Below the pieces are notes generated by a model. That model worked only from the letters and a program-made list of their open reading frames with translations, did not search any database and was not told the DNA's origin. Shown in pieces: positions 4,282 through 33,065 of a stretch of DNA of 64,000 nucleotides. The translations under genes were made by a program, and so were the position numbers. How positions within the stretch are numbered: position 1 is the stretch's first letter; each line of letters starts with the position of its first letter. The stretch comes from a gamma proteobacterium SCGC AAA076-P13. GTDB taxonomy: Bacteria > Pseudomonadota > Gammaproteobacteria > Magnimaribacterales > D2472. Location of the stretch: positions 70,162 to 134,161 of the forward strand of contig ARRA01000002.1 in the NCBI GenBank assembly GCA_000384935.1, given 5' to 3'.

Positions 4282-5580
4282 ATGTCCAATAATAAGAAAT
4301 ATAAAAATAAGAAAATTGGAGATCATGAGCTTAAACCAGAAACTATGATGATGTCCTACGGTTATGATCCAGAGCTATCAGAGGGTTCAGTCAAACCTCC
4401 TATTTTCTTAACTTCTACATTTGCTTATCAGACACCAGAGGAGGGTGAAGAATTTTTTCAAGTTATGGCTGGAAAAAGGCCTGGGCCAGAAGGCAGTGTT
4501 GGCGGTCTTATCTATAGTCGTTTTAATCATCCAAACTTAGAAATTATAGAAGACCGACTTTCATTATTTGAAGGCTCAGAGCGCTCCGTTGTATGCTCAA
4601 GTGGCATGGGTGCAATAAGCTCAATACTCTTAGCTTATTTGCGTCCTGGCGATGTAATTGTTCAAAGCGCACCCTTATATGGAGGAACAGAGTTACTTAT
4701 TCGCAAATTTTTACCTGATTTTAATATCCAAACAGGAGAGCTTAATGATGGTTTGGATGAAAAAAGCATGTTGGATTCAATCCGGAATGCTAGTAAAAAA
4801 GGTCGTGTTGCCATGGTCTTTATTGAATCGCCAGCCAACCCAACTAACTCACTTGTTGATATTGAAGCTCTAAATAGAGTTTTAGATATCATCAAGTCAG
4901 AAACAGGACATCGTCCAATAAGTGTTTGTGATAACACTCTTATGGGACCTATCTTCCAACAAGTTGTACCCCAAGGTATAGATATAGCCATGTATTCCTT
5001 AACTAAATATGTAGGTGGCCATAGTGATCTTGTTGCAGGTGCTGTTTGCGGAAGTATTGAAATGCTTCGCCCAGTTCGAGCTACACGAGGTATGCTGGGT
5101 CTTACTCTTGACCCACATTCAAGCTGGATGATTTCTCGTTCACTAGAGACTTTAAATATCCGTATGCAACGCTCTGCTGATAGTGGCTATAAGGTGGCAC
5201 AGTGGATCAATGATAATCTATATATTCCTGCAAAGGTTCTTCACCCAGATTTTATAGAAGATGAGGTATATCAATCAGTCTATAAACGTCAGTGCTCAGG
5301 ACCAAGCTCAACATTTTCTTTTGTAATTGATGCTGCTAAGTCAGATGCCTTCCGTTTGATTAATAATCTTTCTATTTTTAAATCTGCTGTAAGCCTTGGT
5401 GGCAGTGAGAGCCTTGTCTGTCATCCTGGAAGTACAACGCATTCCAGCGTATCAGATGATTTACGAGAAAAATTTGGTGTAACCGATGGCTTAATTCGCC
5501 TTTCTATTGGTTTGGAGCATCCAGATGATCTGATTGCTGATCTTGATAATGCTTTTAAAACCACATTCAAGGATGCATGA
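4282..5580 (+). CDS. Cys/Met-metabolism PLP-dependent enzyme (cystathionine gamma-synthase / methionine gamma-lyase family)
   Basis: PLP-lysine motif YSLTKYVGGHSDLVAG and a family-typical N-terminal region (PPIFLTSTF, YSRFNHPN). Confidence 0.8.
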   Translation: MSNNKKYKNKKIGDHELKPETMMMSYGYDPELSEGSVKPPIFLTSTFAYQTPEEGEEFFQVMAGKRPGPEGSVGGLIYSRFNHPNLEIIEDRLSLFEGSERSVVCSSGMGAISSILLAYLRPGDVIVQSAPLYGGTELLIRKFLPDFNIQTGELNDGLDEKSMLDSIRNASKKGRVAMVFIESPANPTNSLVDIEALNRVLDIIKSETGHRPISVCDNTLMGPIFQQVVPQGIDIAMYSLTKYVGGHSDLVAGAVCGSIEMLRPVRATRGMLGLTLDPHSSWMISRSLETLNIRMQRSADSGYKVAQWINDNLYIPAKVLHPDFIEDEVYQSVYKRQCSGPSSTFSFVIDAAKSDAFRLINNLSIFKSAVSLGGSESLVCHPGSTTHSSVSDDLREKFGVTDGLIRLSIGLEHPDDLIADLDNAFKTTFKDA

Positions 5581-5778
5581 TCTTCTCACTTAATTAAGTG
5601 CTAATAAAGTAAAAATTTCTGCCTTAGTATGGTTTTATATACCAGTATGATTAGTTTGCCTACTTGCTATTATCTTCTGTATGTCTATATTGTTTAAGCA
5701 TCTGTTAAGCTAATAAAAAACTTTTCAAGACTTTAATTTTCGTGCTTGAGAGTCTATTAATCACTAAGAGGGAGCAAA

Positions 5779-7056
5779 ATGATCAGAAATCTAATGATAA
5801 ATTTTTTAAAGACTGCCTCTAAAGTTAAAGAGAAAGAAGTTAAAGCTGTAATTTTCTCATTTTTATTTGTGGTCGTCTTGATGTCAGCATATTATATTTT
5901 GCGACCAGTTCGCGACGCTATGGCTAGTGATTGGAGTGATGCAGAGGTAAGTTGGTTGTGGACCCTAAATTTTTTTATTAGCACCGCAATCGTAGCGCTA
6001 TATGGCAGTATGGTTTCGAAGTTTCGTTTTCGATTATTGGTGCCAACTATGTACGGCATTTTTGCCATATCATTTGTTATTTTTTATGCCCTAGGGTCTG
6101 TTTTTGAAGATCGAACTCTAATTGATAAATCATTTTATGTTTGGGTAAGCGTATTTAGCCTTTTTCATATTTCTGTTTTTTGGACTTTTATGTCAGAGCT
6201 ATTCAGTAAAGAGCAGTCAGGTAGGCTTTTTGGTATCATTGCTGTTGGTGCTAGTGTGGGTGGTCTCATCGGACCATCGATCACTGCATTTTTCTCAGTT
6301 TCTTTAGGTGCCGACAACTTGATGCTTATCGCAAGTATGATGCTGCTTATTCCAATTCCTATTATTTTTTATCTTCAATCATTGAAATCAAAAGAATTAA
6401 ATAATGAGGTGTTAGATATACCCGACTCCAATCATTCGATTGGCGGGAACCCACTCGCGGGCTTTAAAATGTTTTTCTCTAATCCATATCTTTTATCTAT
6501 CGGCTTATTTATTTTTTTATATACCGGTATTAGTTCATTTGTTTATTTCGAATTAAAAAACTTACTGAGCGATTTTAGTCGCTCTGAACGTTCTGTTATT
6601 TGGGCTCAAATGGATCTTGCAGTAAATATTTTAGCAATCTCTACTGGGCTATTTGCAACAGGTCGCATTGTTACTAAATTTGGTATGCCTGCAACTATTG
6701 CCATGGTTCCAATAATGATTTGTATCGGTTTGCTAGTATTGGCAATTTCACCTTTATTGGGTGTAGTTATGGTATTGCAGATCATTCGCCGCGCTGGCAA
6801 CTATGCTGTAACTCGTCCTGCTCGTGAAATGCTATTCACACTTGTTAATCAAGAAACTCGTTTCAAAGCAAAGCCTGTCATAGATATTGTTGCTTATCGG
6901 GGTGGAGACATGCTTACGGCCTGGCTGTTTACAGGCCTTACGCAAGGCCTGGGTTTAGGTTTGGCTTCAGTTGCTGCTGTTGGTGCCGGAATAGCTAGCT
7001 TATGGGCACTAGTAGGCATCTATCTTGGAAAATGGTTTGATCGCTATGAATCTTAA
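5779..7056 (+). CDS. 12-TM transporter, MFS-type / ATP:ADP-antiporter (TLC)-like family
   Basis: Polytopic 425-aa protein. N-terminal YYILRPVRDAMAS motif resembles the Npt/TLC-like MFS family from memory. Substrate unknown. Confidence 0.55.
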   Translation: MIRNLMINFLKTASKVKEKEVKAVIFSFLFVVVLMSAYYILRPVRDAMASDWSDAEVSWLWTLNFFISTAIVALYGSMVSKFRFRLLVPTMYGIFAISFVIFYALGSVFEDRTLIDKSFYVWVSVFSLFHISVFWTFMSELFSKEQSGRLFGIIAVGASVGGLIGPSITAFFSVSLGADNLMLIASMMLLIPIPIIFYLQSLKSKELNNEVLDIPDSNHSIGGNPLAGFKMFFSNPYLLSIGLFIFLYTGISSFVYFELKNLLSDFSRSERSVIWAQMDLAVNILAISTGLFATGRIVTKFGMPATIAMVPIMICIGLLVLAISPLLGVVMVLQIIRRAGNYAVTRPAREMLFTLVNQETRFKAKPVIDIVAYRGGDMLTAWLFTGLTQGLGLGLASVAAVGAGIASLWALVGIYLGKWFDRYES

Positions 7057-29563: not shown

Positions 29564-29917
29564 ATGGCTGACTTAATTCTTTACCATAACCCAAGATGCA
29601 GTAAATCTAGAGAAGCTTTAAAGCTTTTAGAGGATAGCGATCAAGATTTCTCAACATTCTTATATTTAAATGAAGATTTAAATCATGTTGATCTTGCATC
29701 TCTCCTCGATAGGCTTGGGATTTCTGCGAGAGAATTATTAAGAAAAAATGAAGATGACTATAAATCTAATAATTTAAAGAATATCGAATTGGGAAATGCT
29801 GAGCTTATAGAATTTATGATTCAATTCCCAAAAATAATAGAGAGACCAATTTTAGATAATGGAATGAAAGCTGTTATTGGAAGACCACCAGAAAAAATAT
29901 TAGATTTATTAGTCTAG
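29564..29917 (+). CDS. arsC: arsenate reductase, glutaredoxin-coupled ArsC family
   Basis: YHNPRCSKSR catalytic Cys, plus Arg residues in LLRKN, IERPIL and IGRPPE matching the E. coli ArsC triad positions. Confidence 0.8.
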   Translation: MADLILYHNPRCSKSREALKLLEDSDQDFSTFLYLNEDLNHVDLASLLDRLGISARELLRKNEDDYKSNNLKNIELGNAELIEFMIQFPKIIERPILDNGMKAVIGRPPEKILDLLV

Positions 29918-30301
29918 ATCGCCTTTTTCTCTTAATTCCTTTCTAATTTTGGTTGCACTTATAGAGTGAACTGCTTCATCAAAAACCTCTTGTTCAAAAA
30001 CGTAACCAACGCCTCTGCCATATGAAATATTAACGATATTGGGTACCAGCATAATTTCATACTGATTACCTCTATGAAAATTATCTTTAGCAAGTCCTTC
30101 CTCAATATTTTTACAAACTAAGTCCCAATCAAAAGGATTATCATCTTGACCCATGCCACCAGAAGCACCTTGCACATCTCTTACCTGAATAATTACTTGC
30201 CCAGTTTTCGCAACGCATCTTTTAAAGAGCTCTTGATGACCTTGGTGCCATGGCTGCCATCTTCCAAGCATCTGAACTGTTGGCTTTTTCCAATCAAACA
30301 T
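29909..30301 (-). CDS. small HxGH nucleotidyltransferase (cytidylyltransferase / NMNAT-like fold)
   Basis: GRWQPWHQGH (HxGH) near the N-terminus and SISATKIR (ISxTxIR) near the C-terminus. 130 aa. 8-nt overlap with the upstream kinase gene. Confidence 0.7.
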   Translation of the reverse strand: MFDWKKPTVQMLGRWQPWHQGHQELFKRCVAKTGQVIIQVRDVQGASGGMGQDDNPFDWDLVCKNIEEGLAKDNFHRGNQYEIMLVPNIVNISYGRGVGYVFEQEVFDEAVHSISATKIRKELREKGDLD

Positions 30302-30701
30302 TTTTAAGCTCCTTGGCTATATTGATATGATTTTCATCATTCATTTCAGTTATATGAAAATCTGCCCTTGATGGTTTTTCAAACATTTTATTTGTATCCT
30401 CAAACCTTCCTTCTTTGATTGTGTCCATCCAAATAATTACATCAGGGTCAAAATTCTCTTGAGTATTTTTTGTAGGACATACAAAATCACAAATAACGAT
30501 TCTACCGTGACTTTTCTCATAATCAGCAAATGTTCTCATTCTCATGCTTTGTCTCAATCTACCTTCGGGAGAAAAATCCCAATCATTAGCCATCTCCCTG
30601 ACTTTATCAGCGTTATACCAGGCTGATTCAAGCAAAGGCTGCAATCTTTCAGCTAAATATGTTTTTCCACTTCCAGGTAGACCCATTATTAATATTTTCA
30701 T
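30294..30701 (-). CDS. P-loop kinase, adenylylsulfate-kinase-like fold
   Basis: Walker A GLPGSGKTYLAERL; DWDFSPEGRLRQSMRM resembles the APS-kinase LGFSxxDRxENIRR segment. 135 aa. TAATG overlap with the methyltransferase gene. Confidence 0.65.
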   Translation of the reverse strand: MKILIMGLPGSGKTYLAERLQPLLESAWYNADKVREMANDWDFSPEGRLRQSMRMRTFADYEKSHGRIVICDFVCPTKNTQENFDPDVIIWMDTIKEGRFEDTNKMFEKPSRADFHITEMNDENHINIAKELKNV

Positions 30702-31798
30702 TATCTAATTTTTTTTATTGCAAAGAGCTCATTTTTAAAAAAAACTCTTTCTTCTTTAATAATTACATTTTTTACTCTTTTCAGAGCAGATGCATTTTTT
30801 TCAAGAGCTATTATATCTTTTTCTGGGATTTGGCCAACATATAAAATATTTGCCCATTTAGCATCTAGACCATGCCCAAATAACTCTGAAACAGTCTGAT
30901 CTGGAGTTCTTTTGAATTTAAAACTATAAGGTTTGGGTTTTGAATAAGTGAATCTAGTGTTCTCTCCAACAGGGTTATTCTTTAAATATTCAATAATGTC
31001 CTTACCTTTTACTGGAAATGGATCTTTGTCTTTCCAGGCTTCTTTAAGAATTTTTTCAACAGAATCATCTCCACACGAATGCGTAACAAGCAACTTACCT
31101 GACACATTTAATAATCGCATTAATGGAGCAATAACGTTAGAAACCTTTGTGATGGTAGTTGATATCGCCCTATATGCTTGAGAAGCAATAATTAAGTCAT
31201 AATTGTTATTCTCATAATCATTTTCAATAAATGGCTCAAGATATCTTTTATGATCTTCTCTATAAATTCGTATTAAGCAGGGGTGAGAGTAGGAAGTTCT
31301 ATCTTTTGAATCGATTTCTATTCCCCAATATTTTTTTATAAAATTTCCCATTCCATTAATCTGTTCATTAAAATCAAATGAATTGTCTGCTTTTAATACT
31401 AATGTTAGTTTTTTGACGCTTTTATCTTTTATTTTTTTTGCACTCTCAATTTGTCCAAGCTCTGCAAATTTAACATTTGTCATTGTTACCATTAGATTTG
31501 GATGTTCTACAAATCTATCAGGCATTTTGTCTAATGTATTTTTAAGATCTTCGTAGCTAATTTCTTTGCCTGTAATTAAAAGTGAAGTGTATGGGTGATA
31601 TTTATGAAAACTTTTTATTACATTAGATTTAACAGTCCCATCACCAGTACCTGCATCAAGAATTCTTAGATAGGTTTTATTTTTTGGTAAAGATTTGATA
31701 TGAGGAAAAATTTCAGATGAGATAGCTCTTTTTTCACCTGTATTTTGAATAAATGATAAGTACTTTAGCCTATCATCAAAAAACCTTTTTTTCCCCAT
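30701..31798 (-). CDS. class I SAM-dependent methyltransferase-like protein with large unassigned C-terminal region
   Basis: Motif I LRILDAGTGDGT. AAGGAG SD 7 nt upstream of the ATG. Remainder unassigned. Confidence 0.6.
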   Translation of the reverse strand: MGKKRFFDDRLKYLSFIQNTGEKRAISSEIFPHIKSLPKNKTYLRILDAGTGDGTVKSNVIKSFHKYHPYTSLLITGKEISYEDLKNTLDKMPDRFVEHPNLMVTMTNVKFAELGQIESAKKIKDKSVKKLTLVLKADNSFDFNEQINGMGNFIKKYWGIEIDSKDRTSYSHPCLIRIYREDHKRYLEPFIENDYENNNYDLIIASQAYRAISTTITKVSNVIAPLMRLLNVSGKLLVTHSCGDDSVEKILKEAWKDKDPFPVKGKDIIEYLKNNPVGENTRFTYSKPKPYSFKFKRTPDQTVSELFGHGLDAKWANILYVGQIPEKDIIALEKNASALKRVKNVIIKEERVFFKNELFAIKKIR

Positions 31799-31913
31799 AG
31801 AAATGCTCCTTTAATAATCATATATGAAATTGCAAATTCCTCAATAATCGATTTACTCTTGTATTATTTTGGTATTAAAATAATCTAAATAAGTTTTTTG
31901 GGGGGAGAACTAG

Positions 31914-33065
31914 ATGGCGTCGAAATTACCTTTATTAATTGGAATAGGCTCAAGAGTTAGAAAATCACCATATTTTGATTCAACCATCAAATATGGAGTA
32001 ACTGGCTTTACTGTCTATAACAAAATGTACTTACCTACTGGTTTTACAAGCCCTGAAAAAGAATATAACAGCTTGATAAGTGATGTTACTTTTGGTGATT
32101 TTGCAGCAGAAAGGCAAGTTGAAGTTAGTGGGCCAGATGCATTTAATTTTATAAAGTATATTAATCCAAGAAACCTATCAAAGTGTCATATTGGGGATTG
32201 TAAATACATTATTTTGACTGATTCTGATGGCGGAATTGTAAATGATGCTTGTTTGATAAGACTTGAAGAAGATAAGTTCTGGGTATCACCTGGTGATGGT
32301 GATGTTTTATTATGGTTACAAGGCGTTGCCATGAACTCAGGTATGAATGTATCAATTTGCGAGCCTGATGTTTCACCTCTTCAGGTTAGCGGACCCAAAG
32401 CAGGGAGATTAATTCAAAAGTTATTTAATGGAAGGCATGATGATCTTGGTTACTATAAAGCTGCCCAAACATCATTAGAAAATATTCCTATGGTTATTGC
32501 TAGAACTGGGTGGAGTGGGGAACTTAGTTATGAGCTTTATCTTCAAGATAGAAAATTGGGCAATAATTTGTTTGAATTAGTTTATGAGGCTGCAAAAGAA
32601 TTCAATGGCGCTGTGATAGCTCCAAATACCATAAGGACCATTGAAGGCGGGCTATTGTCTTATGGTTCTGATTTTGGAAGAGAGCATAATCCTTATACTA
32701 TTGGTCTAGATAGATTGGTAGATATAGATCAGGATATAGATTTTATTGGCAAAGAAGCTCTAAAAAAAATTAAAGAAACTGGAGCTGTAAGTAAATTAAT
32801 TGGTGTAGAAATGGATGGAGCTCCAATAGATAAAGTGCCGGAAAATTTTTGGCCTGTCTTCGACAAAAATGGCAATAAAGTCGGGAGACTTTCAAGATGT
32901 TTCTATTCACCTCGTCTTAAAAAAAATATTGGTCTTGCAATTGTAGATTCCAGTGCCACAGATGAGGGCAATCAAGTTATAGTTGAGTCACCTCAAATTA
33001 AATATAATGCAATAGTGGCTAAATTACCTTGGTTTCCAGCTGAAAAAGATACAAACTTAATCTAA
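31914..33065 (+). CDS. dmdA: GcvT-family aminomethyltransferase, DmdA-like (candidate DMSP demethylase)
   Basis: SRVRKSPYFDSTIKYGVTGFTVYNKMYLPTGF, ERQVEVSGPDAF and EPDVSPLQVSGPKA match my recollection of DmdA rather than canonical GcvT. Strong SD GGGGGGAG. Confidence 0.6.
   Translation: MASKLPLLIGIGSRVRKSPYFDSTIKYGVTGFTVYNKMYLPTGFTSPEKEYNSLISDVTFGDFAAERQVEVSGPDAFNFIKYINPRNLSKCHIGDCKYIILTDSDGGIVNDACLIRLEEDKFWVSPGDGDVLLWLQGVAMNSGMNVSICEPDVSPLQVSGPKAGRLIQKLFNGRHDDLGYYKAAQTSLENIPMVIARTGWSGELSYELYLQDRKLGNNLFELVYEAAKEFNGAVIAPNTIRTIEGGLLSYGSDFGREHNPYTIGLDRLVDIDQDIDFIGKEALKKIKETGAVSKLIGVEMDGAPIDKVPENFWPVFDKNGNKVGRLSRCFYSPRLKKNIGLAIVDSSATDEGNQVIVESPQIKYNAIVAKLPWFPAEKDTNLI

What the first reader, a model, noticed from the sequence alone, without database searches (positions are those of the whole stretch)
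29909..31798. Translationally coupled triad of unknown pathway: methyltransferase -> APS-kinase-like P-loop kinase -> mini HxGH nucleotidyltransferase
Three minus-strand genes are chained by TAATG and 8-nt overlaps behind one strong SD (AAGGAG). The first is a 365-aa protein with SAM motif I (LRILDAGTGDGT) and ~200 unassigned residues. The second is a 135-aa kinase with Walker A GLPGSGKT and an APS-kinase-like DWDFSPEGRLRQSMRM segment. The third is a 130-aa nucleotidyltransferase with GRWQPWHQGH and ISATKIR. Phosphorylation, methylation and nucleotidyl activation together resemble known logics. One is a split NadR-type nicotinamide-riboside kinase plus NMNAT. Another is the kinase / phospho-base N-methyltransferase / cytidylyltransferase route to CDP-choline-like head groups. 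A third is a CoaD/CoaE-like pair. However, the sizes and the kinase fold fit none of them cleanly. The last gene even overlaps the convergent arsC by 9 nt. This is my best candidate in the window for an undescribed small-molecule activation pathway.
Basis: partly seen in the sequence, partly recalled or inferred. Interest (0 to 1): 0.6.

Follow-up and report, generated by a model that had tools for sequence, protein, structure and literature searches.

The report
Mini sulfate-activation gene pair plus methyltransferase
Two tiny overlapping genes in this SAR86 ocean bacterium most likely make "activated sulfate" (APS/PAPS), one of them probably being a new kind of ATP sulfurylase that SAR86 and SAR11 were thought to lack, while the upstream methyltransferase is a local add-on.

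Summary
The three minus-strand genes, their TAATG and 8-nt overlaps, both AAGGAG sites and the 9-nt overlap with arsC are all confirmed.

The conserved unit is the kinase plus nucleotidyltransferase (NT), not the triad. The two co-occur in the same 26 of 41 SAR86 genomes. They are fused in many phage proteins, and they recur in SAR11, other marine Alphaproteobacteria and over 550 viral contigs.

Four independent contexts point to APS/PAPS:
- a sulfotransferase takes the methyltransferase's place in a sister SAR86 family;
- CysQ (PAP phosphatase) sits directly upstream in marine Alphaproteobacteria;
- APS reductase aprM-aprB-aprA sits alongside in SAR11;
- in 121 SAR11 genomes, 69 of 71 with AprA carry the NT and only 4 of those 71 have canonical Sat.

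39 of 41 SAR86 genomes lack Sat and CysD.

Best reading: a compact APS kinase plus an NMNAT-derived, non-orthologous ATP sulfurylase. No enzyme assay exists.

The 365-aa protein is a true small-molecule SAM methyltransferase by fold (nearest histamine N-methyltransferase). It is confined to one SAR86 genus, is dispensable at this locus, and is never found with the pair elsewhere.

Earlier agents of this scan reached the same PAPS reading on other genomes.

The parts
31806..31811 (-). Shine-Dalgarno AAGGAG, 7 nt before the methyltransferase start codon
   Evidence: Read directly from the sequence.
31799..31913 (-). Shared upstream (promoter) region between the divergent dmdA-like gene and the operon
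   Evidence: It aligns with the region that directly precedes the kinase in the methyltransferase-less genomes G004 and G014. It holds a weak sigma-70-like site at 31844-31817, which is not above chance.
30701..31798 (-). 365-aa class I SAM-dependent small-molecule methyltransferase of an unnamed family. It is an accessory first gene of the operon.
   Evidence: AlphaFold model pTM 0.83. Foldseek top hits are histamine N-methyltransferase (E 3e-9, probability 1.0), GtmA, RoqN, JHAMT and NNMT. Motif I is DAGTGDGT. No Pfam model passes its cut-off. Distant homologues sit beside MetK in two genomes. The gene is restricted to one SAR86 genus.
30294..30701 (-). 135-aa compact APS-kinase-family kinase, proposed to convert APS to PAPS
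   Evidence: PF01583 scores 29.6 bits against a cut-off of 21.1. The best PDB hit is APS kinase 2yvu, E 2.5e-7. The full-length alignment with a true CysC domain keeps the P-loop, D-x-x-R, F-S..R..R, F-x-x-P and F..(F/Y)E-x-P, with a lid deletion of about 27 residues. It is the only APS_kinase hit in four pair-bearing genomes.
30309..30314 (-). Internal AAGGAG inside the kinase 3' end, 7 nt before the NT start (translational coupling)
   Evidence: Read directly from the sequence.
29909..30301 (-). 130-aa minimal HxGH nucleotidyltransferase, proposed to be a non-orthologous ATP sulfurylase (sulfate adenylyltransferase)
   Evidence: The motifs are GRWQPWHQGH, invariant YGRxVGY and ISATKIR. The fold matches PPAT and archaeal NMNAT. 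It co-occurs with the kinase in the same 26 of 41 SAR86 genomes and is fused to it in phages.
29564..29917 (+). Convergent arsC (glutaredoxin-type arsenate reductase) overlapping the NT stop by 9 nt. It is a neighbour and not part of the module.
   Evidence: TIGR00014 scores 110.4 bits against a cut-off of 106. The gene is absent from this position in some syntenic genomes (L013).

Best explanation
The kinase and the mini nucleotidyltransferase (NT) form a self-contained two-gene sulfate-activation module.

Proposed steps:
1. The NT transfers AMP from ATP to sulfate, giving APS and pyrophosphate. This is ATP sulfurylase chemistry on an NMNAT/PPAT-like HxGH scaffold (inferred).
2. The compact APS-kinase homologue phosphorylates the 3'-OH of APS to give PAPS (inferred from family membership and context).

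Tight coupling by overlap or fusion is what a GTPase-less sulfurylase needs, because APS formation is strongly unfavourable and must be pulled by the kinase (established knowledge of PAPS synthases).

In this SAR86 genome the PAPS would feed the genome's three sulfotransferase genes, and a CysQ-like phosphatase would remove PAP. In SAR11 the same pair accompanies APS reductase AprBA. There the NT could run in reverse (APS + PPi to ATP + sulfate) to finish sulfite oxidation.

The 365-aa first gene is a genuine small-molecule SAM methyltransferase. It has been placed between the pair's promoter and the kinase in one SAR86 genus. It is co-expressed but is not a core partner, and its substrate is unknown.
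For: Unit:
- Kinase and NT occur in the same 26 of 41 SAR86-order genomes, and in 25 of them they are adjacent.
- A single phage family profile, phrog_10255, covers both.
- Fused proteins in the order kinase-NT occur in Xylella, Xanthomonas and Stenotrophomonas phages. There are 5242 database relatives, and some sources name them adenylylsulfate kinase.

Kinase:
- PF01583 is above its cut-off, and APS kinase is the best PDB hit.
- The substrate-segment residues are kept against a true CysC domain.

Context:
- Sulfotransfer_3 (E 1e-39 to 1e-48) lies directly upstream in SAR86 family f2, and similar genes do so in 9 of 80 genome loci.
- CysQ (287 bits, cut-off 229) lies directly upstream in marine Alphaproteobacteria.
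- aprM-aprB-aprA lies alongside in SAR11 and MarineAlpha5 loci (AprA 991-1010 bits).
- A sulfotransferase and glycosyltransferases lie beside the fused gene in phage contigs L124 and L125.
- A kinase homologue lies in the glycosyl/sulfotransferase cluster of phage RSL1.

Profiles:
- SAR86 families with sulfotransferases (f1 24 of 24, f2 6 of 6) carry the pair (20 of 24, 5 of 6). Families f3 and f4 have neither, except G033, which has CysD instead.
- 39 of 41 genomes lack Sat and CysD.
- In SAR11, NT against AprA gives [[69,10],[2,40]], and 24 genomes have the two genes within 4 kb. Sat is found in 6 of 121 genomes.

Literature: 'most SAR11 lack ATP sulfurylase' despite having AprAB (PMC10356861).

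NAD rival weakened: NadD is present in pair-bearing f2 genomes. Genus g1 has a CinA-like/NadD-like fusion.

Methyltransferase as an add-on.
Against: - There is no biochemical evidence for any of the three proteins.
- The NT profile has no detectable similarity to a canonical Sat domain (hhalign probability 0.8%).
- Its fold matches PPAT and NMNAT, and no ATP sulfurylase appears among the top 50 hits.
- The invariant YGRxVGY segment is modelled with pLDDT below 50.
- The SAR86 kinase lacks about 27 lid residues.
- Five sulfotransferase-bearing SAR86 genomes and eight SAR11 genomes show no pair. The five SAR11 genomes tested also have no Sat.
- Nine SAR11 genomes have the NT but neither AprA nor Sulfotransfer_3.
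- In the 80 viral loci a sulfotransferase was detected only once. Most neighbours there are replication or sugar-nucleotide genes.
- Some phage copies follow a PurA-like gene.
- All the counts are from related genomes and are not corrected for phylogeny.
- The AprA search of the SAR86 genomes had no positive control.
Confidence: 0.6

Rival explanations
1. The kinase is a true APS kinase, but the NT is not a sulfurylase. It would carry out another nucleotidyl transfer linked to APS/PAPS metabolism. Alternatively, it would adenylylate a different anion or small molecule that the kinase then 3'-phosphorylates.
For: The NT's sequence and fold are closest to NMNAT, NadD and PPAT, not to Sat. Phage contexts are heterogeneous: PurA-like, QueC-like and sugar-nucleotide enzymes. 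RSL1 carries the kinase without this NT.
Against: The genomes with sulfotransferases or AprBA and this pair have no other candidate for sulfate adenylylation. Strict pairing or fusion with an APS kinase in the PAPS-synthase domain order is most simply explained by consecutive steps.
Confidence: 0.22
2. A split NadR-like salvage pair: the kinase phosphorylates nicotinamide riboside and the NT adenylylates NMN to NAD.
For: The NT's best family hits are archaeal, NadM and NadR NMNAT models (E 1e-6 to 3e-3). The motif GRWQPWHQGH resembles GRFQPFHxGH. Canonical NadD was not detected in genus g1. The kinase weakly matches AAA_28.
Against: - All NMNAT scores are far below the cut-offs (25.6 against 181 bits), and the match covers only residues 11-85.
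- The kinase scores better, and above the cut-off, as an APS kinase. AAA_28 scores 19.6 bits against a cut-off of 27.
- Family f2 genomes carry both NadD (over 150 bits) and the pair.
- Genus g1 has a CinA-like/NadD-like fusion protein.
- The neighbours are sulfotransferase, CysQ and AprBA, never NAD genes.
- The near-perfect co-occurrence with AprA in SAR11 has no explanation in NAD metabolism.
Confidence: 0.06
3. One reading: all three enzymes act on one small molecule (phosphorylation, methylation, nucleotidyl activation). An example is a phospho-base N-methylation and CDP-activation route to a head group.
For: The three genes are translationally coupled behind one SD in this genus. Foldseek hits for the methyltransferase include phosphoethanolamine N-methyltransferases, at low rank. 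One SAR86 locus has psd-pssA downstream of the pair.
Against: - The methyltransferase is missing from the same slot in G004 and G014, and it is separated from the pair in G021.
- It is absent from every non-g1 locus and from all 80 viral loci.
- Its distant homologues never neighbour the pair.
- In the sister family a sulfotransferase occupies its position.
Confidence: 0.06
4. A CoaD/CoaE-like pair that makes a CoA-like 3'-phospho-ADP compound.
For: The top Foldseek hits of the NT are PPATs. The order 'nucleotidyltransferase, then 3'-kinase' is the same.
Against: A separate canonical CoaD-like gene is present (85.8 bits). The kinase belongs to the APS-kinase family, not the CoaE family. No pantothenate or CoA genes lie nearby.
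Confidence: 0.02

Closest known systems
Bifunctional PAPS synthase (metazoan PAPSS1/2; fungal and bacterial Sat-CysC fusions)
   Same: Two consecutive steps, sulfate to APS to PAPS, by an HxxH-type nucleotidyltransferase and a P-loop APS kinase. The two are tightly coupled or fused. The fused phage and bacterial forms have the PAPSS order, with the kinase N-terminal and the transferase C-terminal.
   Different: The transferase part is only about 115-130 aa and has no PUA-like N-domain. It has no detectable similarity to the Sat family PF01747 (hhalign 0.8%) and derives from the NMNAT/NadD/PPAT branch. The SAR86 kinase is about 45 aa shorter than CysC, with a truncated lid. No activity has been shown.
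NodP/NodQ plus NodH (rhizobial dedicated PAPS synthesis next to a sulfotransferase)
   Same: A dedicated sulfate-activation module is encoded next to the sulfotransferase it serves, in genomes where bulk assimilation is separate. Nearby decoration genes (carbamoyltransferase, methyltransferase) recall NodU and NodS.
   Different: NodPQ are CysD/CysN-CysC homologues and use GTP hydrolysis. The pair here uses an unrelated mini transferase and no GTPase.
Apr-Sat pathway of sulfite oxidation in sulfur oxidisers
   Same: In SAR11 and related Alphaproteobacteria the pair sits beside, or co-occurs with, aprM-aprB-aprA. That is where Sat is expected.
   Different: Canonical Sat was found in only 4 of 71 AprA-bearing SAR11 genomes. 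An APS kinase accompanies the candidate sulfurylase, which the classical pathway does not need. No AprA was found in the five SAR86 genomes searched, including the window's own.
Archaeal/NadM-type NMN adenylyltransferase and NadR
   Same: The GR(F/W)QP(F/W)HxGH and ISxTxIR motifs, the Rossmann-like fold, and (for NadR) the pairing with a P-loop kinase.
   Different: The scores are far below the family cut-offs. The protein is about 40 aa shorter, and the region after strand 3 is replaced by an invariant YGRxVGY segment. The kinase is of the APS-kinase type, not the NadR RNK type, and the genomic context is sulfur, not NAD.
Histamine N-methyltransferase-like small-molecule methyltransferases (for the 365-aa protein)
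   Same: A class I SAM fold with an inserted substrate-binding subdomain. HNMT is the top Foldseek hit. Motif I is GxGxG.
   Different: About 11-12% identity, roughly 80 aa longer, no Pfam model, and an unknown substrate. The family is sparse in Pseudomonadota (11 of 400 genomes).

Membership tests
APS kinase (Pfam PF01583 / CysC) | Pfam model score above the gathering cut-off | tested here: met
   29.6 bits against 21.1, but only residues 3-82 match profile positions 5-90 of 152. The whole-genome search gave 27.5 bits, over the cut-off.
APS kinase (Pfam PF01583 / CysC) | P-loop, D-x-x-R, and the F...R...R substrate segment and F-x-S-P strand seen in true CysC | tested here: met
   The alignment with the G033 CysC domain and 2yvu keeps GLPGSGKT, (N)AD-x-x-R, DFS..GR..Q..R and DFVCP. 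The first Asp of DGD is Asn in SAR86 but is retained in phage Salvo. The Ser of ISP is Cys or Ala.
APS kinase (Pfam PF01583 / CysC) | Full-length equivalog score and an intact lid region | tested here: not met
   TIGR00455 scores 23 bits against a cut-off of 138.7. About 27 lid residues are deleted in the 135-aa form and are present in the 164-aa SAR11/MarineAlpha5 forms.
APS kinase (Pfam PF01583 / CysC) | Phosphorylates APS at the 3'-OH | not testable with these tools
   This needs an enzyme assay.
ATP sulfurylase, Sat type (PF01747) | Sequence or profile similarity to the Sat catalytic domain | tested here: not met
   There is no Pfam or NCBIfam hit. hhalign of the NT family against the G025 Sat domain gives probability 0.8%. 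No Sat appears among the top 50 Foldseek hits.
ATP sulfurylase, Sat type (PF01747) | Motif order R-x-x-P-x-H-x-x-H ... G-R-D ... I-S-G-x-x-x-R | tested here: inconclusive
   The NT has GRWQPWHQGH ... YGRGVGY (YYGRDVGY in the fused forms) ... ISATKIR, in the same order as G025 Sat (HTRNPAHGVH ... GRDHTG ... ISGSDVR). The first and last motifs are generic to the superfamily, and the spacing differs.
ATP sulfurylase, Sat type (PF01747) | Catalyses ATP + sulfate <-> APS + PPi | not testable with these tools
   Only context and phylogenetic-profile evidence is available.
Archaeal/NadM-type NMNAT (TIGR01527, PRK01153) | Family model score above the cut-off over the full length | tested here: not met
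   25.6 bits against 181.2, and 27.7 against 127. Only residues 11-85 match. PDB 1f9a gives E 0.0095 over 35 residues.
NadR (NMNAT + ribosylnicotinamide kinase) | Kinase belongs to the NadR RNK family (AAA_28) | tested here: not met
   AAA_28 scores 19.6 bits against a cut-off of 27, weaker than APS_kinase.
HxGH (cytidylyltransferase-like) nucleotidyltransferase superfamily | Rossmann-like fold with HxGH and ISxTxxR motifs | tested here: met
   H19-x-G-H22 and I114-S-A-T-x-I-R120 are invariant. Foldseek gives PPAT and NMNAT at probability 1.0, TM 0.45-0.51 over about 85 residues. PF01467 itself scores only 14.7 bits against a cut-off of 21.
Class I SAM-dependent methyltransferase (HNMT-like small-molecule type) | Seven-strand methyltransferase fold with the GxGxG SAM motif | tested here: met
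   The model has pTM 0.83. Foldseek gives HNMT at E 3e-9 and probability 1.0, and 65 hits at E<=1e-3 that are all methyltransferases in the top 50. G50 and G52 are nearly invariant across the family.
Class I SAM-dependent methyltransferase (HNMT-like small-molecule type) | Match to a curated methyltransferase family model | tested here: not met
   The best is Methyltransf_31 at 16.3 bits against a cut-off of 27. Only 2 of 22 family members hit any Pfam family, one each. The profile against PDB sequences gives HNMT at only E 0.5.

The most novel reading that the evidence does not exclude
The 130-aa protein founds a new, NMNAT-derived family of ATP sulfurylase. It would be the 'missing' sulfate adenylyltransferase of SAR86 and SAR11, the most abundant heterotrophs of the surface ocean, and it would be spread by their phages. 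In SAR86 it would work forwards with its APS-kinase partner to make PAPS for sulfation. In SAR11 it would work backwards with AprBA, turning sulfite from organosulfonates into sulfate plus ATP.
Probability: 0.55. Interest if true: 0.85.

Novelty: new variant of a known kind. Interest (0 to 1): 0.72.

Why it matters
SAR11 and SAR86 are textbook cases of genome streamlining that have 'lost' sulfate activation. Yet both keep enzymes that need APS or PAPS: sulfotransferases, CysQ and AprBA. The literature explicitly notes that most SAR11 have AprAB but no ATP sulfurylase (PMC10356861).

A 130-aa enzyme that fills this gap would do three things:
- It would complete the sulfite-oxidation and sulfation pathways of very abundant marine bacteria.
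- It would add a third, non-orthologous solution to sulfate activation beside CysDN and Sat.

Its presence on more than 550 viral contigs would make it a widespread auxiliary metabolic gene. The hypothesis is directly testable by complementation in E. coli and by a simple coupled assay.

Tried and rejected
- **NadR-like NR kinase plus NMNAT.** Rejected as the main reading. The scores are below the cut-offs, NadD or a NadD-like fusion is present elsewhere in the genomes, and the neighbours are sulfur genes.
- **CoaD/CoaE-like pair.** A separate CoaD is present and the kinase is of the wrong family.
- **The triad as one pathway.** The methyltransferase is dispensable and lineage-restricted.
- **The 365-aa protein as a disguised sulfotransferase.** I considered this because a sulfotransferase of the same size takes its place in family f2. 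BLAST found no similarity, and the fold is clearly that of a methyltransferase.
- **Homology of the NT to Sat.** Sought by hhalign and Foldseek and not found.
- **Promoter and terminator scan.** Nothing above chance.
- **Literature.** Searches for any description of this pair, or of SAR86 sulfotransferases, returned nothing relevant.
- **Structure prediction with distant methyltransferase homologues.** The model therefore rests on a shallow alignment (68-92% identity).
Full report
**1. Observation**

- The first junction is TAATG, with one shared base.
- The second junction is an 8-nt overlap (ATGTTTGA).
- AAGGAG sites lie 7 nt before the first ATG and 7 nt before the NT's ATG.
- The NT stop overlaps the convergent arsC by 9 nt. 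That gene is a glutaredoxin-type arsenate reductase (TIGR00014, 110 bits against a cut-off of 106).
- All quoted motifs are present.

The organism is a SAR86-type gammaproteobacterium. Close homologues come from SAR86 MAGs and SAGs. The assembly is 1.31 Mb and 87% complete.

**2. What the three proteins are**

*Kinase.*
- Pfam APS_kinase is above its cut-off (29.6 bits against 21.1), matching the N-terminal two thirds.
- The best solved relative is the Aeropyrum APS kinase 2yvu (E 2.5e-7).
- I aligned it with a genuine CysC domain from a relative (G033 CysNC). It is colinear end to end. It keeps the P-loop, D-x-x-R, the F-S..R..R substrate segment, F-x-x-P and the terminal F..(F/Y)E-x-P.
- It lacks about 27 lid residues. 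The 164-aa versions from SAR11 and MarineAlpha5 retain them.

*NT.*
- The invariant motifs are GRWQPWHxGH, NPF, YGRxVGY and ISATKIR.
- Family hits are weak: archaeal and NadM NMNAT at E 1e-6, far below the cut-offs.
- An AlphaFold model (pLDDT 76) matches PPAT and archaeal NMNAT over the first 85 or so residues. The YGRxVGY segment is poorly modelled.
- Its family profile matches a NadD-type domain (hhalign probability 59%, E 9e-5). It does not match a canonical Sat domain (probability 0.8%).

*365-aa protein.*
- No curated family matches.
- A confident model (pTM 0.83) sits among small-molecule class I SAM methyltransferases. Histamine N-methyltransferase is the top hit (E 3e-9, probability 1.0).
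- An exhaustive search finds 448 cluster representatives, including full-length relatives at 25-36% identity.
- In a draw of 400 other genomes of the phylum, 11 carry it. Two of these, from different families, have it beside S-adenosylmethionine synthetase. None has it near a kinase, NT or sulfotransferase.

**3. The unit is the pair, not the triad**

- Kinase and NT occur in the same 26 of 41 SAR86-order genomes, and in 25 of them they are adjacent.
- One phage family profile (phrog_10255) spans both.
- They are fused, kinase first, in Xylella, Xanthomonas and Stenotrophomonas phages. The fused form has 5242 database relatives.
- The pair recurs in Pelagibacter (including cultured HIMB strains), other marine Alphaproteobacteria and a Woeseia MAG.
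- It is also on at least 553 viral contigs. In the 80 best, the kinase is adjacent in 50 and fused in 4.

The methyltransferase gene, by contrast:
- was found only in the window's genus (18 of 24 congeners, 0 of 16 genomes from other families of the order);
- is missing from the same syntenic slot in G004 and G014;
- stays alone in that slot in G021, beside a 20-codon kinase relic, while the pair lies 58 kb away in a polysaccharide locus;
- is absent from all 80 viral loci.

The sequence upstream of the methyltransferase gene in the window matches the sequence upstream of the kinase in the methyltransferase-less genomes. The gene is therefore a clean presence/absence between a shared promoter region and the kinase.

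**4. Evidence that the pair handles APS/PAPS**

(a) *Sulfotransferases.*
- In the sister SAR86 family f2, a Sulfotransfer_3 gene (E 1e-39 to 1e-48) takes the position that the methyltransferase takes here, directly upstream of the kinase.
- Similar genes occupy this position in 9 of the 80 genome loci.
- A metagenomic phage has sulfotransferase - 202-aa gene - DUF2061 - fused gene - glycosyltransferases.
- Phage RSL1 has a kinase homologue in a glycosyltransferase/sulfotransferase cluster.

(b) *CysQ.* In marine Alphaproteobacteria the gene directly upstream is CysQ, the PAP phosphatase (TIGR01331, 287 bits against 229).

(c) *APS reductase.* In SAR11 group-1 and MarineAlpha5 loci the pair abuts aprM-aprB-aprA (AprA 991-1010 bits against 642; AprB 190-193 bits against 136). 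L098 and L084 were annotated. The other loci show the same ORF pattern.

(d) *Phylogenetic profiles in SAR86.*
- Families with sulfotransferases (f1 24 of 24, f2 6 of 6) carry the pair (20 of 24, 5 of 6).
- Families f3 and f4 have neither. The exception is G033, which has a weak sulfotransferase-like hit and a canonical CysD.
- Sat occurs only in G025. That is also the one genome where kinase and NT are on separate contigs.
- In four pair-bearing genomes the pair's kinase is the only APS_kinase hit.
- The window's genome has three sulfotransferase genes and a CysQ-like gene.

(e) *Phylogenetic profiles in SAR11 (121 genomes).*

| Comparison | Table | Odds ratio |
|---|---|---|
| NT against AprA | [[69,10],[2,40]] | 138 |
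| NT against Sulfotransfer_3 | [[44,35],[8,34]] | 5.3 |

- 26 of the 35 genomes with the NT but no sulfotransferase hit are AprA-positive.
- Sat is present in only 6 of 121 genomes, and in 4 of the 71 that have AprA.
- By my reading, NT and AprA lie within 4 kb in 24 genomes and far apart in the rest. Co-occurrence therefore does not depend on adjacency.
- These counts are not corrected for phylogeny.

[quoted passage not shown] I found no paper describing this pair.

**5. Mechanism**

- *Shown:* family and fold assignments, gene coupling, fusion, context and co-occurrence.
- *Inferred:* the NT adenylylates sulfate to APS, and the kinase makes PAPS.

From established knowledge of PAPS synthases, APS formation is very unfavourable and is pulled by APS kinase and pyrophosphatase. 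That explains the obligate pairing or fusion, and the absence of a CysN-like GTPase.

In the window's lineage no AprA was found (that search had no positive control). The module should therefore run forwards, for sulfation. In SAR11 it may also run backwards, after AprBA.

The methyltransferase is co-expressed with the pair in this genus. Its substrate, and any link to sulfation, are unknown.

**6. Rivals**

- *NadR-like NR kinase plus NMNAT.* The NT's ancestry fits, and canonical NadD is missing in genus g1. However, g1 has a 367-aa CinA-like/NadD-like fusion (GSFNPLHDGH ... ISSTELR; PF01467 34 bits). Family f2 has both NadD and the pair. The kinase is not of the NadR type.
- *CoaD/CoaE-like pair.* A canonical CoaD-like gene exists separately.
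- *NT with another function.* A residual rival keeps the kinase as an APS kinase but gives the NT a different nucleotidyl-transfer role. This cannot be excluded without an assay.

**7. Weak points**

- There is no biochemistry.
- The NT shows no similarity to Sat.
- The kinase lid is truncated.
- Five SAR86 genomes and eight SAR11 genomes have sulfotransferases but no detected pair. The five SAR11 genomes tested also have no Sat.
- Nine SAR11 genomes have the NT with neither AprA nor a sulfotransferase hit.
- Viral neighbours are mostly replication genes and sugar-nucleotide enzymes (UDP-glucose dehydrogenase, epimerase, carbamoyltransferase), and a sulfotransferase was detected only once.
- Some phage copies follow a PurA-like gene.

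**8. Relation to earlier scan notes**

I recorded the PAPS reading in my notebook and again when I first queried the notes, before I saw any note on this pair. Two earlier follow-up agents had reached the same reading on other genomes (e1-2361293 and e1-5148903). Those are unchecked AI notes and are not counted as evidence.

- the CysQ and AprBA adjacencies;
- the SAR11 co-occurrence tables;
- the survey for Sat across SAR11;
- the fold assignment of the methyltransferase and its MetK-linked relatives;
- the promoter-sharing indel.

**9. Verdict**

- The finding is a new variant of a known kind: sulfate activation by a non-orthologous mini enzyme pair.
- It is well supported by comparative genomics, untested biochemically, and of high interest for marine sulfur cycling.

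Noticed in passing
L038 6776-6997, L124 6779-6997, L126 6776-6997; 13 of 80 viral loci (e.g. L168 5793-6008): A 71-73-aa DUF2061 membrane protein sits directly upstream of the fused or paired kinase-NT genes in many viral contigs. It may be a third, membrane-bound component, possibly for anion uptake.
   Followed up: partly
G000:C7:29311-30414 (locus L120 1311-2414, minus strand): Genus g1 lacks a canonical NadD. It has instead a 367-aa fusion of a CinA/PncC-like N-domain (21 bits, just under the cut-off) and a NadD-like C-domain (GSFNPLHDGH ... ISSTELR; PF01467 34 bits). No NCBIfam model matches it.
   Followed up: partly
window 31914-33065 (+); second copy at G000:C1 (L122 192-1337): A divergent DmdA-like aminomethyltransferase lies upstream (NF009133 339 bits, below the cut-off of 410). 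A second copy (385 bits) lies two genes from the 676-aa TPR-sulfotransferase gene of the same genome.
   Followed up: partly
G021:C2:9610-9669 (locus L021, just after the methyltransferase gene at 5520-6617): A 20-codon relic of the kinase N-terminus with an internal TAG remains beside the methyltransferase gene. An intact pair sits 58 kb away between ManC-like and Wzz polysaccharide genes. This is a trace of the pair's loss from this locus, or of its relocation.
   Followed up: partly
L034-L037 (phage contigs), fused gene at L034 7001-7768: The fused kinase-NT gene overlaps by 4 nt a short (341-aa) adenylosuccinate-synthetase-like gene. Nearby are an IMPDH-like gene and B12-binding radical SAM genes. 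This is a nucleotide-metabolism context that the PAPS model does not explain.
   Followed up: no
L129 951-3104 (G025:C7): The only canonical Sat in the 41 SAR86-order genomes is a 717-aa protein. Its N-terminal half looked pyruvate-kinase-like to me by eye, which I did not test. The same genome is the only one with kinase and NT on separate contigs.
   Followed up: no
G000:C1:87925-88500 (L122 2240-4270) and many SAR86/SAR11 genomes: Large (440-740 aa) proteins that carry a Sulfotransfer_3 domain are widespread in SAR86 and SAR11. In the G000 copy (676 aa) the N-terminal part is TPR repeats. The acceptors are unknown.
   Followed up: no
L106 2307-8998 (Pelagibacter HIMB1587 and relatives): In one SAR11 group the pair is embedded in a same-strand run of genes: DMGDH-like (801 aa), Methyltransf_11 (211 aa), creatinase/M24-like (411 aa), kinase, NT, HalD-like Fe/2OG enzyme (283 aa) and enoyl-CoA hydratase. 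This is a second, unrelated methyltransferase near the pair.
   Followed up: no
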